Shown: positions 20,079 to 28,069 of the stretch, piece by piece
Position numbering within the stretch: position 1 is the first letter of the stretch
How the letters are laid out: each line of letters starts with the position of its first letter
Sequence record: PP988008.1
Source: Escherichia phage phiE31-2
Length of the DNA: 51,468 bases
Reading direction: 5' to 3' (one strand)
The notes under the pieces: model-generated
The model's database searches: none
What the model saw: only the letters and a program-made list of their open reading frames with translations
Told to the model about the DNA's origin: nothing
Made by a program: the position numbers and the translations under genes

Positions 20079-20780
20079 ATGAGTAAAGAAACTGAAGTGA
20101 CATTTGAACAAATAGAACGAGAAACATTCATTGGCAATGCTCTTGCTACTGGTGGTCATTACCAGGCTGTTAAACCAAATCAATATTTCAAAGTTACTGG
20201 CAACCGCTATAACGGCAGCAATACGCCGGACGTTGTGCGCGATTTGTGGTCTACGCCGTATGAGCTTGTCGAATGGATGGAAAGCGAATACGGTGATTAT
20301 GACATCGACGCGGCGGCAAGCAAAGAAAATGCTGTATGTGAAAAATTCTACAGCAAGGAAACAAATTGTTTAAAGCGTTGGTGGGGTAGTAATAAGCATA
20401 TATGGCTGAATCCACCGTACAGCAATATTACGCCATTTGTTAAGAAGGCGATTGAGCAAATGGAGCACGGAAACCAGATCGACATGCTTTTACCTTGCGA
20501 CACGTCAACAGGATGGTTTTATGAGGCGCAACAGCACGCAGCGGAAATAATCTGGATCACTGGAGAAGTTTACCAGGAGGACGGAACAGAATATTCCCGC
20601 ACCGGACGCTTGGCGTTTACTTCCGCGCTCACAGGTAAGCCAGTGCAGGGAAACAACAAAGGCAGCGTTATTTTCATCATGCGCGAACTGAAAGAAGGTG
20701 AGCAGCAGAAAACGCGATACGTTAAAATCAGCGACATTTGCCCTTCGGTGGCAGACCGTCGCGCACGGAAACGGAGCTAA
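20079..20780 (+). CDS. dam: DNA N6-adenine methyltransferase (phage Dam-type)
   Basis: 233 aa; catalytic NPPY motif (WLNPPYSN); phage-Dam-like N-terminus. Confidence 0.8.
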   Translation: MSKETEVTFEQIERETFIGNALATGGHYQAVKPNQYFKVTGNRYNGSNTPDVVRDLWSTPYELVEWMESEYGDYDIDAAASKENAVCEKFYSKETNCLKRWWGSNKHIWLNPPYSNITPFVKKAIEQMEHGNQIDMLLPCDTSTGWFYEAQQHAAEIIWITGEVYQEDGTEYSRTGRLAFTSALTGKPVQGNNKGSVIFIMRELKEGEQQKTRYVKISDICPSVADRRARKRS

Positions 20781-24797: not shown

Positions 24798-26381
24798 TTA
24801 CCCCAGCAATGTTGGATTTACGAAAACAACGCCATTAATCACACAAATATAATTTCTTTCCTCAAGCATCGGAAGCAGTTGCGTTTCCATTCGCTTCATT
24901 ACGCCAGCCTGACCAACAAACGGCTTAACTTTTCGTGCAGCCTCATATATGGCGCGAACATTCAAGATTCCCTTATTAGCCTTTCCGTGTCGAGTGATGA
25001 TCTCGATTAGTTTACCCATTTCAGCATCATCACCAGCGTAGCCAGAAGCGTTGGCGGCGCTAATGTATGTTTTGCTCAACTCGCTAAACATCAGCAGTGC
25101 TTCCTGAACGGTTTCAACCTCAATCTCTTTCGACTTTTGAGGGTATCCGCAAGGATTAAACCAATTGCGGATAGTGTGCAAAACCGAAGCAATCCTGATC
25201 ACCTGCTTATCCATTTTGCCAAGCGCACCGCGCAGCATTGTATGCGAATACTTTCCGCCATCGGCAAGGTGCGGTTCCATCTCCTGACGAGCCATGTTAA
25301 GAACTCGCATTGCTGATTTGCTGATCTTAAGCTGGATGTTTGATTCGCTCATGATGTTATGGATCAGCTTAAAATATTGGCTTTTCAGTTCCCCATCAAC
25401 AGGCTCATAAGTCGAATCACCGTTATCATCAACAAACTTTCTACGGCCTAAAAATGATTCCTCACGCACAAGCAAATAACGCTCACTTACACCGATACCG
25501 CGCGATCCTGCATCCATGATGGCATTGATTGTTTCATCCTGGGCAATTACCGCCATACAGCCAAGAGCTTTAAAACTCATATTGTTGTCAGCGTTTGCAC
25601 GAGCTATAGAAACATGACCATGATCCCATGCTTTCAGCACAAGTTCGCTGTTGGTTTTACGTTCGCTATTGGCATATGTCAGACCTAAAAGGCTGTTAAT
25701 ACTCGTTGCCTCGTCTGAAATTACAGCAAAGTTACCCTGGCGATTATTGATTCTTGCAAGTCCTTCCGGCGTGGTGTCGGACACAGGGAAAACAATGTCA
25801 CACATCTTTTCCAGCTTTTCTTCAAGATCTTCTTTCTCCTGGTATAGCGATTCCATATCAGCGCCGGAGCGCTCGCTTTTCATCTCTTTTGCAAGACCTG
25901 CCAACTTTGCCTGAATCTTTTTTCTTTCCTTCTTTCGCTGATCGTTAATTCTTTCCACTTCCGCAACCATTGGAGCAAGTGCCAGGCTGTTAACGGCAGA
26001 TTTACCAGTTGAAGGAGGTTGGCTTGTAACAACGTACAGAGCGGTTGGTTGATCCGTTCCGTGATACTCAACAGTGAAGCGTCCAAGCATTGCAGCAGAC
26101 ACGCATCCGATAAAATGCATATATGCCGATGATTCAGGGAATTGAACAGATCGAGCAATGTTGCGCGCCAACTTTCCAACAACATCAACATCATTGCCAA
26201 GAGAAATTACAGGGTAGCGATCGTTTCCGTTATTAACATCATTAACCTCACCCCAAAAGCTGGACGATTGACGGTATCCGTTTGCCTGAATGGACACGCG
26301 CACCGGAGACAATCCTTGCGCATCAGCTAATTCGATAATTTGTTTTGGTGTTAGTTTATTGGTTTCAAACGAAAAATTCAT
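24798..26381 (-). CDS. P-loop NTPase, putative replication-associated protein
   Basis: 527 aa from ATG with AAGGAG RBS; Walker A-like QPPSTGKS; coiled-coil K/E-rich segment; large early leftward gene. Confidence 0.6.
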   Translation of the reverse strand: MNFSFETNKLTPKQIIELADAQGLSPVRVSIQANGYRQSSSFWGEVNDVNNGNDRYPVISLGNDVDVVGKLARNIARSVQFPESSAYMHFIGCVSAAMLGRFTVEYHGTDQPTALYVVTSQPPSTGKSAVNSLALAPMVAEVERINDQRKKERKKIQAKLAGLAKEMKSERSGADMESLYQEKEDLEEKLEKMCDIVFPVSDTTPEGLARINNRQGNFAVISDEATSINSLLGLTYANSERKTNSELVLKAWDHGHVSIARANADNNMSFKALGCMAVIAQDETINAIMDAGSRGIGVSERYLLVREESFLGRRKFVDDNGDSTYEPVDGELKSQYFKLIHNIMSESNIQLKISKSAMRVLNMARQEMEPHLADGGKYSHTMLRGALGKMDKQVIRIASVLHTIRNWFNPCGYPQKSKEIEVETVQEALLMFSELSKTYISAANASGYAGDDAEMGKLIEIITRHGKANKGILNVRAIYEAARKVKPFVGQAGVMKRMETQLLPMLEERNYICVINGVVFVNPTLLG

Positions 26382-26409
26382 TGATGATAACTCCTTTTTG
26401 ATGCGGCAA

Positions 26410-26452
26410 TAATACCGCACCAATGCTACCCGCATTTAACAAAAAATGCTAT
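26410..26452 (-). promoter_or_regulatory. conserved-motif promoter-like element
   Basis: Minus strand TAGCATTTTTTGTTAAATG - 18 nt - TATTAT upstream of P-loop gene. Confidence 0.5.
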
Positions 26453-27084: not shown

Positions 27085-27127
27085 ATTATGCCAGGCTTTT
27101 ACACCTGGCTTTTAACAAAAAGTGCTA
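27085..27127 (-). promoter_or_regulatory. conserved-motif promoter-like element
   Basis: Minus strand TAGCACTTTTTGTTAAAAG - 18 nt (GCCAGG/CCTGGC hairpin) - CATAAT. Confidence 0.55.
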
Positions 27128-27835
27128 TTTTGCGTTAGCTTCAAAGACGGCGCGAGCAAAACCTCGCGGAGTGAGGGAGCGGATCATCTTTGTGCGAGAT
27201 GATTTTCCGCCAGTTTTGGCCCAACCAGGATTATCCTTGTCATCCTCTTTAGGAAGGATTGTTGCGCGCGGAGGAATAACAAATCCGTTTCCAGTCCAAA
27301 GGCATGTTTTCTTAAAGTACCGATCGCGCGCAGGAATAATATCAGGAAAGTCGGGATGTTTATCATCTTCCGGCAGATAGCCAGCATAATCGCACGGATG
27401 GAACGTATAATCAGGCTTGCGCCATAACGTTGACAGCTTTCCTACAGGATTCTCTATCATGTACGGAACACCGAAATAATCAGCGATATGCGCCGCAATT
27501 TTGCAAGTGTCGGCGGCTTCATCCTGGAAAGCTGGATTCTCAAGGCGTTTTTTGGTCCAATGGCGAGATCCGCTATTCGCAAGGTCAGTGCACGGCGGAA
27601 ATGCCATAATGAAATCAGGCTTGCCCCAATTTTCAAGTTTTGCGGTATATTTGAATAGCTCATCAATCCACACATTAACGTAAAAAATATTATCATGGAT
27701 TATGCGCACTGATTGGTAATCTCCGTGATCGGCATCATCGTAATTAAAGCAAATGCATTTATATCCAGCATCAGCCCAATCTTTAACGGCCTTACCAGAT
27801 CCATCAAACAAAGAGAAAATTAAACCTTTATACAT
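27125..27835 (-). CDS. compact DNA (cytosine-5)-methyltransferase-like protein
   Basis: 236 aa; C5-MTase-like motifs in canonical order and spacing: I FDGSG (aa 10-14), IV FPPCT (79-83), VI ENP (128-130), VIII PARDR (168-172), IX-like RSLTPRGFARA (219-229); only ~45 aa where a target-recognition domain would be; no motif X. Confidence 0.55.
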   Translation of the reverse strand: MYKGLIFSLFDGSGKAVKDWADAGYKCICFNYDDADHGDYQSVRIIHDNIFYVNVWIDELFKYTAKLENWGKPDFIMAFPPCTDLANSGSRHWTKKRLENPAFQDEAADTCKIAAHIADYFGVPYMIENPVGKLSTLWRKPDYTFHPCDYAGYLPEDDKHPDFPDIIPARDRYFKKTCLWTGNGFVIPPRATILPKEDDKDNPGWAKTGGKSSRTKMIRSLTPRGFARAVFEANAK

Positions 27836-27844
27836 TTCATCACC

Positions 27845-28069
27845 TCAAAACGGAAAGCATCTAGGACAGTTCGGATCAAAATTGCAACCACAATCATTAA
27901 CAATCATTGTTGGATCTGCAAATGCAGCGCCGCATTCATGGTCCATATCCATTTCACCCAACGCATCATCAAGCGTCCTGATTTTATATGCGACTTCAAG
28001 CGCTGCCTCTTTATTCAGTCCGGCATCTTCTGCTTTTTGCAGTCGCTCAAAAAAACCGTCTTGACTCAT
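27845..28069 (-). CDS. hypothetical Cys-rich protein
   Basis: 74 aa; C-terminal CGCNFDPNCPRC cluster suggests metal binding. Confidence 0.45.
   Translation of the reverse strand: MSQDGFFERLQKAEDAGLNKEAALEVAYKIRTLDDALGEMDMDHECGAAFADPTMIVNDCGCNFDPNCPRCFPF

What the first reader, a model, noticed from the sequence alone, without database searches (positions are those of the whole stretch)
27125..27835. Compact C5-cytosine-methyltransferase-like protein without a canonical target-recognition domain
The 236-aa protein shows C5-MTase motifs in the expected order and spacing (I FDGSG, IV FPPCT with the candidate catalytic Cys, VI ENP, VIII PARDR, IX-like RSLTPRGFARA). Only about 45 residues lie between motifs VIII and IX where a TRD normally sits, and no GN(S/A)V motif X is apparent. 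Together with the separate Dam methylase this suggests two DNA-modification activities; the short form could mean relaxed specificity, a partner protein, or a non-canonical substrate.
Basis: partly seen in the sequence, partly recalled or inferred. Interest (0 to 1): 0.65.

Follow-up and report, generated by a model that had tools for sequence, protein, structure and literature searches.

The report
Known compact phage Dcm cytosine methyltransferase
This gene encodes a small phage DNA cytosine-C5 methyltransferase that is already annotated and whose near-identical relative has been studied experimentally (it triggers the retron Ec86 defence), so it is real but not new.

Summary
The window is a T1-like coliphage (genus Hanrivervirus); the exact protein is in UniRef as "Site-specific DNA methylase" of Escherichia phage phiE31-2. 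It is 233/236 identical to the "Dcm-like C5 cytosine methyltransferase" of phage KarlJaspers. In a KarlJaspers strain (K42), the same 711-bp gene (C82, E128, K175, K176) triggers retron Ec86 and puts 5mC on msDNA (Wang et al., Cell Rep 2024).

The speculative readings are not supported. No neighbour gene is conserved across phage families, and the K42 enzyme works alone. Among T1-like phage loci, CCWGG is never purged where the gene is intact (0/45) and is purged in 5/9 where it is absent or decayed. CCWGG was the top discriminator of 2,427 k-mers. That points to strict CCWGG specificity.

Verdict: already known; low interest.

The parts
27125..27835 (-). dcm-like gene: 236-aa compact orphan DNA cytosine-C5 methyltransferase (coordinates include the stop codon)
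27840..27846 (-). Shine-Dalgarno GAGGTGA at -11..-5, overlapping the stop codon of the upstream 74-aa ORF
   Evidence: Sequence read directly. The + strand base at -9 (27844) is C, which fits the C-to-A change 9 bp upstream of the start in two K42 retron-escape mutants.
27794..27808 (-). Motif I FDGSG (AdoMet-binding loop after beta1)
   Evidence: Coordinates verified. G12, S13 and G14 are invariant in A1. Aligns to motif I of DNMT3B and PF00145.
27587..27601 (-). Motif IV FPPCT with catalytic Cys82 (codon 27590-27592)
   Evidence: P81 and C82 invariant. C82 is 95% conserved in remote representatives. Aligns to the PC motif of DNMT3B and M.HhaI. C82 is one of four residues changed together in the inactive K42 quadruple mutant.
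27446..27454 (-). Motif VI ENP (Glu128)
   Evidence: E128, N129 and P130 invariant; 97-98% conserved in remote representatives. E128 is also changed in the K42 quadruple mutant.
27296..27325 (-).
   Evidence: D171, Y173, K175, T177 and W180 are at least 90% conserved, while R172 is not. Strand E177-182 in the model. K175/K176 were assigned as substrate-binding residues by superposition on DNMT3A in the K42 study.
27200..27289 (-). Short variable, TRD-like segment (res 183-212, about 30 aa) ending in the conserved GGK
   Evidence: Lowest-confidence and most variable part of the protein (pLDDT block 62-82; alignment). It sits where the canonical TRD lies. The VIII-to-IX spacing is 44-51 residues against 111 in M.HhaI.
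27149..27181 (-). Motif IX RSLTPRGFARA, forming the last helix; the protein ends 7 residues later with no motif X
   Evidence: I218-G225 invariant. 6/11 identical to M.HhaI motif IX RKLHPRECARV, and unique in the window. Relatives extend a median of 3 aa beyond our C-terminus, and GN[AS][VIW] occurs in only 2 of 149 representatives.
20079..20780 (+). Separate Dam-type N6-adenine methyltransferase (context: the phage's second orphan methylase)
   Evidence: PF05869 Dam E=6.3e-61. Syntenic with bas07_0041 'Dam-like N6-adenine methyltransferase'. GATC is not avoided: 278 observed against 194 expected.

Best explanation
The gene encodes a stand-alone (orphan) phage DNA cytosine-C5 methyltransferase of a compact, phage-borne family (PHROG 757). 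Using S-adenosylmethionine and Cys82 as the nucleophile, it methylates cytosine C5 in CCWGG sites of replicating phage DNA. This pre-empts CCWGG-cutting restriction enzymes (EcoRII type) when host Dcm is absent or too slow. It works without a phage-encoded partner. Its cost is that retron Ec86/Eco1 uses the same activity as an alarm, because methylation of the CCTGG site in the msDNA stem-loop activates the retron effector. Shown here: ORF, motifs, fold, family size, near-identity to the characterised ortholog, and the CCWGG association. Shown by others for the K42 ortholog: 5mC formation and retron triggering. Inferred: CCWGG specificity of this exact protein, and the anti-restriction role.
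Against: The site specificity of this family has not been mapped directly. The K42 paper takes CCWGG from host Dcm. Its host MG1655 is, from my own knowledge, dcm+, yet it neither auto-activates Ec86 nor shows high msDNA 5mC without the phage enzyme. So the phage enzyme differs from host Dcm in dose, access or target. The genomic association is correlative and not corrected for phylogeny (at least 3 independent purged lineages). Four loci without an intact gene (T1, L040, L047, L060) still keep CCWGG. Sequence similarity to canonical C5-MTases is weak: PF00145 gives 11 bits against a cutoff of 22, covering motifs I-IV only, and hhalign against the M.HhaI family gives probability below 1%. Motif X, which helps form the AdoMet pocket in canonical enzymes, is missing, and I could not establish what replaces it.
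Confidence: 0.85

Rival explanations
1. It is an active C5 DNA methyltransferase, but with a different or relaxed specificity (for example CCNGG, CCW or the outer cytosine) made possible by its minimal TRD. CCWGG is only an assumption carried over from host Dcm.
For: The variable region is only about 30-45 aa. The K42 study did not map sites, and host Dcm in MG1655 does not trigger Ec86. msDNA variants ACTGG and CATGG both abolish defence, which fits several possible motifs.
Against: Intact-gene phages frequently purge CCSGG to about 0 while keeping CCWGG at 2-4 per kb, so CCSGG is evidently not covered. In the unbiased scan, only CCWGG and its 6-mer extensions were purged in at least 4 non-intact loci and in no intact one; the unrelated CTCCC (3 of 9, 0 of 45) was the only other 4- or 5-mer with none purged among intact loci.
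Confidence: 0.1
2. The enzyme is real and CCWGG-specific, but its main benefit to the phage is not anti-restriction. It could instead serve epigenetic timing of phage genes, mismatch-repair evasion, or packaging or replication control.
For: T1 and L040 lack the gene without purging CCWGG, and the K42 deletion mutants are viable, so the gene is dispensable in the laboratory. Most E. coli strains are dcm+ (own knowledge).
Against: CCWGG is purged to about 0 in several T1-like lineages, which shows strong CCWGG-directed selection in this phage family. Those lineages are exactly the ones without an intact gene.
Confidence: 0.08
3. It needs a partner subunit that supplies the missing TRD or motif X (a split enzyme like M.AquI), or it acts on RNA or transfers a group other than methyl.
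Against: No neighbour is conserved outside Drexlerviridae. The K42 enzyme expressed alone gave 5mC on DNA by LC-MS. DNA C5-MTases (DNMT3B/3A) score higher than DNMT2. A host-encoded partner cannot be excluded.
Confidence: 0.03

Closest known systems
Phage KarlJaspers/K42 Dcm, the trigger of retron Ec86 (Retron-Eco1) (Wang et al., bioRxiv 10.1101/2023.08.16.553469; Cell Rep 2024;43:114857)
   Same: Same genus (Hanrivervirus), same 711-bp gene in the same position upstream of the DUF3987 helicase, and the same numbering of C82/E128/K175/K176. 233/236 identical to the Bas06 allele.
   Different: Three conservative substitutions relative to Bas06 (T94A, A102S, A115S). The K42 allele itself is not available to compare. 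Nothing functional distinguishes them.
E. coli Dcm / M.EcoRII (CCWGG C5-methyltransferases)
   Same: Inferred same target site (CCWGG) and chemistry (5mC), and the same protective logic against EcoRII-type enzymes.
   Different: Not orthologous. No NCBIfam model matches at E<=10. The phage protein is half the size (236 aa against about 470 aa, from my own knowledge) and lacks a canonical TRD and motif X. Host Dcm does not activate Ec86 in MG1655, whereas the phage enzyme does.
DNMT3A/DNMT3B catalytic domains
   Different: 11-18% identity. DNMT3 keeps motif X, targets CpG and works in DNMT3L-containing oligomers. The phage enzyme's oligomeric state is unknown.
M.HhaI and other canonical bacterial type II C5-methyltransferases (PF00145)
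   Different: VIII-to-IX spacing is 44-51 residues against 111. There is no motif X (M.HhaI has 25 residues from GNSV to the end). PF00145 score is below threshold, and profile-profile comparison is not significant.

Membership tests
DNA cytosine-C5 methyltransferase superfamily (PF00145-type) | Class I Rossmann-like MTase fold whose nearest structural neighbours are C5-MTases | tested here: met
DNA cytosine-C5 methyltransferase superfamily (PF00145-type) | Motif I FxGxG (AdoMet loop) | tested here: met
   FDGSG at 10-14; G12, S13 and G14 invariant; aligned to DNMT3B motif I.
DNA cytosine-C5 methyltransferase superfamily (PF00145-type) | Motif IV Pro-Cys with the catalytic cysteine | tested here: met
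   PPC 80-82, at least 91% conserved in remote representatives; aligned to the PC of DNMT3B and M.HhaI.
DNA cytosine-C5 methyltransferase superfamily (PF00145-type) | Motif VI ENV with the catalytic Glu | tested here: met
   E128-N-P130, 97-98% conserved.
DNA cytosine-C5 methyltransferase superfamily (PF00145-type) | Motif VIII QxRxR | tested here: inconclusive
   The literal PARDR exists, but R172 is not conserved. The conserved block is D171-x-Y-x-K175-x-T-x-x-W180. The K42 study equates K175/K176 with the DNMT3A arginines. I could not obtain a residue-level superposition.
DNA cytosine-C5 methyltransferase superfamily (PF00145-type) | Sizeable target-recognition domain between motifs VIII and IX | tested here: not met
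   44-51 residues from VIII to IX, against 111 in M.HhaI. This holds family-wide.
DNA cytosine-C5 methyltransferase superfamily (PF00145-type) | Motif IX (RxLTxRExARLxGFP-like) | tested here: met
   RSLTPRGFARA against M.HhaI RKLHPRECARV, 6/11 identical. The pattern is unique among 102,932 six-frame positions. I218-G225 invariant.
DNA cytosine-C5 methyltransferase superfamily (PF00145-type) | Motif X GN(A/S)V helix closing the AdoMet pocket | tested here: not met
   The protein ends 7 aa after motif IX. Relatives extend a median of 3 aa further. GN[AS][VIW] is present anywhere in only 2 of 149 representatives. There is no N-terminal substitute, because beta1 starts at residue 5.
DNA cytosine-C5 methyltransferase superfamily (PF00145-type) | Passes Pfam PF00145 gathering score | tested here: not met
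   11 bits against a cutoff of 22, residues 7-93 only. Three relatives pass at 24.7-28.5 bits, again over motifs I-IV only.
DNA cytosine-C5 methyltransferase superfamily (PF00145-type) | Forms 5-methylcytosine in DNA | not testable with these tools
   Reported for the K42 ortholog by LC-MS of msDNA, and lost in the C82A/E128A/K175A/K176A quadruple mutant.
PHROG 757 compact phage DNA methyltransferase family | Full-length match to the family profile | tested here: met
   E=3.4e-86, residues 2-235. 1,502 phage records, 3,277 clusters at 90% identity and 1,228 clusters at 50% identity contain relatives.
Retron Ec86/Eco1-triggering phage Dcm | Orthology to the K42/KarlJaspers dcm gene (length, position, catalytic residues) | tested here: met
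   99% identity to Bas06, same synteny, same residue numbering as. The K42 allele itself is unavailable.
Retron Ec86/Eco1-triggering phage Dcm | Activates Ec86 by methylating the msDNA CCTGG site | not testable with these tools
   Known only from the K42 experiments.
E. coli Dcm / M.EcoRII orthologous group | Sequence membership (curated NCBIfam models) | tested here: not met
   No NCBIfam model matched at E<=10. The resemblance is functional (CCWGG), not orthology.
E. coli Dcm / M.EcoRII orthologous group | CCWGG target specificity | tested here: inconclusive
   Indirect support only. CCWGG is purged only where the gene is absent or decayed (0/45 against 5/9), and it ranks first of 2,427 k-mers. 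There is no direct methylome.

The most novel reading that the evidence does not exclude
The family is a minimal C5-methyltransferase architecture, with no motif X and a recognition segment of about 30-45 residues, that still reads a 5-bp site. If so, it must use a recognition mode not yet seen in solved bacterial C5-MTases. Candidates are DNMT3-like dimerisation, or the family-specific invariant D36-H37-G38-x-Y40 loop replacing motif X in the AdoMet pocket. Its ability to methylate retron msDNA where host Dcm apparently does not would then reflect a real difference in substrate access.
Probability: 0.3. Interest if true: 0.5.

Novelty: already known. Interest (0 to 1): 0.2.

Why it matters
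For this window it matters little, because the gene is annotated in dozens of close relatives and has been functionally studied in a same-genus phage. More generally, the family is among the smallest C5-methyltransferases. It is widespread in enterobacterial phages: T1-like phages, Webervirus, rV5-like phages, RB49/Phi1-like phages, Jerseyvirus and Dhillonvirus. It is both an anti-restriction asset and the alarm signal for retron Ec86/Eco1. The comparison run here adds that T1-like phages follow one of two alternative strategies against CCWGG-directed restriction: they keep the methylase, or they purge the site and let the gene decay. A structure with DNA would show how so small an enzyme reads CCWGG without motif X.

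Tried and rejected
1. Sequence bridging to canonical enzymes failed. PF00145 matches only motifs I-IV below threshold. A family profile against PDB sequences gives E about 0.1, N-terminal half only. hhalign of a 109-sequence family alignment against M.HhaI alone and against 120 M.HhaI relatives gave probability below 1%, with only motif IV aligned. The homolog search spent on M.HhaI returned only orthologs above 70% identity, too narrow to help.

2. Pfam scans of C-terminal fragments, meant to decide between motif IX and motif X, found nothing. I could not get residue-level structural superpositions, so what replaces motif X remains open.

3. The partner-protein idea was tested by neighbourhood comparison in four distant phage families and rejected.

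4. The single T1-versus-window comparison was inconclusive for CCWGG, because T1 lacks the gene but keeps CCWGG. It was replaced by the 58-locus survey.

5. My first automatic intact/degraded filter misclassified L014, L032 and L048; these were corrected by eye.

6. The AFDB50 fold library was unavailable. The published Cell Reports version is not held. One literature query was malformed.

7. The BF23/T5 methylation paper concerns avoidance of host Dcm and does not bear on this enzyme, beyond showing that lambda DNA from a dam+ dcm+ host was only partly Dam-methylated.

Full report
**Observation.** The ORF at 27125-27835 is real. It lies on the minus strand, starts with ATG and encodes 236 aa. 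A strong Shine-Dalgarno, GAGGTGA, sits at -11..-5 and overlaps the stop codon of a 74-aa upstream ORF. No GN(S/A)V follows, and the protein ends 7 residues after motif IX. The separate Dam gene is at 20079-20780 (+), PF05869 E=6e-61.

**What genome and gene this is.** The window is a T1-like siphovirus of genus Hanrivervirus (Drexlerviridae). It is 97% identical to Shigella phage pSf-1 over the local 3 kb. The gene is annotated in close relatives as "Dcm-like C5 cytosine methyltransferase", "DNA-cytosine methylase" or "site specific DNA methylase". The exact protein is UniRef100_A0AB39CAM6, "Site-specific DNA methylase" of Escherichia phage phiE31-2.
- It matches PHROG 757 "DNA methyltransferase" at E=3.4e-86.
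- It scores only 11 bits against Pfam PF00145 (cutoff 22), over motifs I-IV.
- It matches no NCBIfam model.
- Relatives occur in 1,502 phage records: T1-like phages, Webervirus, Vequintavirus, Krischvirus, Jerseyvirus, Dhillonvirus and others.
- Relatives also fall into 3,277 clusters at 90% identity and 1,228 clusters at 50% identity.

**Experimental literature.** The protein is 233/236 identical to bas06_0055 of phage KarlJaspers. The retron Ec86 study worked with a KarlJaspers strain, K42 (bioRxiv 10.1101/2023.08.16.553469; published as Wang et al., Cell Rep 2024;43:114857).
- All four retron-escape mutants disrupt a 711-bp dcm gene. Two of them carry a C-to-A change 9 bp upstream of the start. 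In our window that position (27844, + strand) is the C complementary to the core G of the Shine-Dalgarno.
- Dcm expression alone is toxic in Ec86+ cells.
- A C82A/E128A/K175A/K176A quadruple mutant is inert. These residue numbers match ours exactly.
- LC-MS shows raised 5mC on msDNA when Dcm is expressed.
- Later papers cite this as established.

So the function of this gene is already known at the level of 5mC formation and retron triggering.

**Is the compactness real?** Yes, and it is a property of the whole family.
- Representatives have a median length of 236 aa and extend a median of 3 residues beyond our C-terminus.
- Deep conservation marks PPC (80-82), G89, K96, E128-N-P130, P147, D171-x-Y173-x-K175-x-T177-x-x-W180, P188 and R219-S-x-T-P-x-G225-F.
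- Motif IX is supported. RSLTPRGFARA shares 6 of 11 residues with the M.HhaI motif IX RKLHPRECARV; I verified the M.HhaI sequence against 10mh_A. The shared pattern occurs once in 102,932 six-frame positions of the window.
- The VIII-to-IX spacing is 44-51 residues, against 111 in M.HhaI. M.HhaI has a further 56 residues from the start of motif IX to its end, including motif X, while our protein has 18.
- Motif X is therefore absent. There is also no N-terminal substitute, because strand beta1 begins at residue 5.

PARDR is probably not the functional motif VIII, because R172 is variable. The conserved D-x-Y-x-K-x-T-x-x-W block on beta7 is the better candidate, and the K42 authors equate K175/K176 with the DNMT3A arginines.

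I could not determine what replaces motif X in the AdoMet pocket. Sequence bridging failed, and the tools give no residue-level superposition.

**Testing the speculative readings: partner protein.** Gene neighbourhoods in Phi1 (Krischvirus), nomine (Vequintavirus), NJS1 (Webervirus) and a Pararheinheimera phage share no homologous neighbour with the window, apart from ordinary synteny within Drexlerviridae. The K42 enzyme also works when expressed alone from a plasmid.

**Testing the speculative readings: relaxed specificity.** I ran a natural experiment, using the adjacent DUF3987 helicase as an anchor to fetch 58 T1-like loci of 11-22 kb. CCWGG density is bimodal: about 1.8-3.9 per kb, or about 0. 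After manual curation of gene integrity, the result was:
- All 45 loci with an intact gene keep CCWGG (minimum 1.78 per kb).
- Five of the 9 loci where the gene is absent or decayed have purged it. These are L050 and L053 (absent), L062 (truncated), L064 (split across three frames) and L065 (insertion plus an in-frame stop).
- Fisher p=2.5e-4 on the first-pass classification (0/42 vs 5/12). This is not corrected for phylogeny, and there are at least three independent purged lineages.

In an unbiased scan of 2,427 4- to 6-mers, CCAGG/CCTGG ranked first for "purged only where the gene is not intact", followed by its own 6-mer extensions. The only other 4- or 5-mer purged in no intact locus was the unrelated CTCCC (3 of 9). 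Many intact-gene phages, this window included (123 CCWGG against 4 CCSGG), have almost no CCSGG. So the enzyme evidently does not cover CCSGG. This argues for strict CCWGG specificity and against relaxed recognition.

**Caveats.** Specificity has never been mapped directly for this family. The K42 paper imports CCWGG from host Dcm. Its host MG1655 is, to my knowledge, dcm+, yet it does not self-activate Ec86 and shows low msDNA 5mC without the phage enzyme. So the phage enzyme differs from host Dcm in dose, access or target. The genomic association is correlative. T1, L040, L047 and L060 lack an intact gene but keep CCWGG, as expected if gene loss is recent or the relevant restriction pressure is absent.

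**Mechanism.** Most likely (confidence 0.85) this is an autonomous AdoMet-dependent C5-methyltransferase that methylates CCWGG on replicating phage DNA. It complements host Dcm, which is plausibly too slow for fast-replicating phage DNA: lambda DNA from a dam+ dcm+ host was only partly Dam-methylated, described as an intermediate methylation state. It thereby protects against EcoRII-type restriction. Together with Dam (GATC is not avoided: 278 against 194 expected), it gives the phage two self-encoded methylation shields. The phage removes other common sites from its genome instead: GAATTC 1, GATATC 0, CTGCAG 0 and CCSGG 4. The same activity is sensed by retron Ec86/Eco1.

**Verdict.** The core interpretation (a compact C5-MTase) is supported, and the speculative extensions are not. 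The gene is already annotated, and its near-identical ortholog has been experimentally characterised, so novelty is "already known" and interest is low. The residual open question is structural: how an enzyme without motif X and with such a small recognition segment reads a 5-bp site.

Noticed in passing
whole window (1-51468): Several restriction-type palindromes are strongly purged: GAATTC 1 (expected 15), GATATC 0 (15), CTGCAG 0 (9), CCSGG 4 (52), GGWCC 14 (67). GCGC is 3.1-fold over the base-composition expectation (372 against 119), and GATC and CCWGG are enriched. Phage T1 does not purge GATATC or CCSGG.
   Followed up: partly
L008-L065 (T1-like loci from IMG/VR): T1-like phages split into lineages that keep the compact dcm gene and CCWGG sites, and lineages that have purged CCWGG to about 0 and in which the gene is absent (L050, L053) or visibly decaying (L062 truncated, L064 frameshifted, L065 insertion plus stop). 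A separate, partly overlapping split exists for CCSGG (about 0 against 1-2 per kb).
   Followed up: yes
GenBank records MG065671 (Campylobacter phage A120), MG065640 (A14b) and about 20-39 others: Records labelled 'Campylobacter phage' with host C. jejuni match this E. coli T1-like region by megablast (20 records) and carry the same dcm-like gene (45.8-46.6% protein identity in the two named records). They look like T1-like coliphages, so the host label may be wrong.
   Followed up: no
window 27845-28069 (-): A 74-aa ORF immediately upstream of dcm, whose stop codon overlaps the dcm Shine-Dalgarno. It has a Cys-rich C-terminus (HECG...CGCNFDPNCPRC) that suggests a small zinc-binding protein. 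It has no Pfam hit and is not conserved next to dcm in other phage families.
   Followed up: partly
BFVD A0A6J5SE15 (1397 aa), A0A6J5NPY6 (1126 aa); representatives P0206 (453 aa), P0225 (401 aa), P0233 (414 aa), P0256 (563 aa): Some uncultured phages carry the compact Dcm-like domain fused into much larger proteins (one is annotated Helicase/UvrB N-terminal) or with N-terminal extensions of about 170-200 aa of unknown nature.
   Followed up: no
window 27692-27742 (-), residues 32-48: A family-specific loop between beta2 and beta3 carries the invariant D36-H37-G38-x-Y40, which has no counterpart in canonical C5-MTases. It is a candidate to compensate for the missing motif X in the AdoMet pocket (speculative).
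   Followed up: no
window 24798-26435 (-): The neighbouring 'helicase' is a DUF3987 protein (PF13148, E=2.6e-43), 58% identical to T1 ST9. It is a good syntenic anchor for Drexlerviridae loci.
   Followed up: partly
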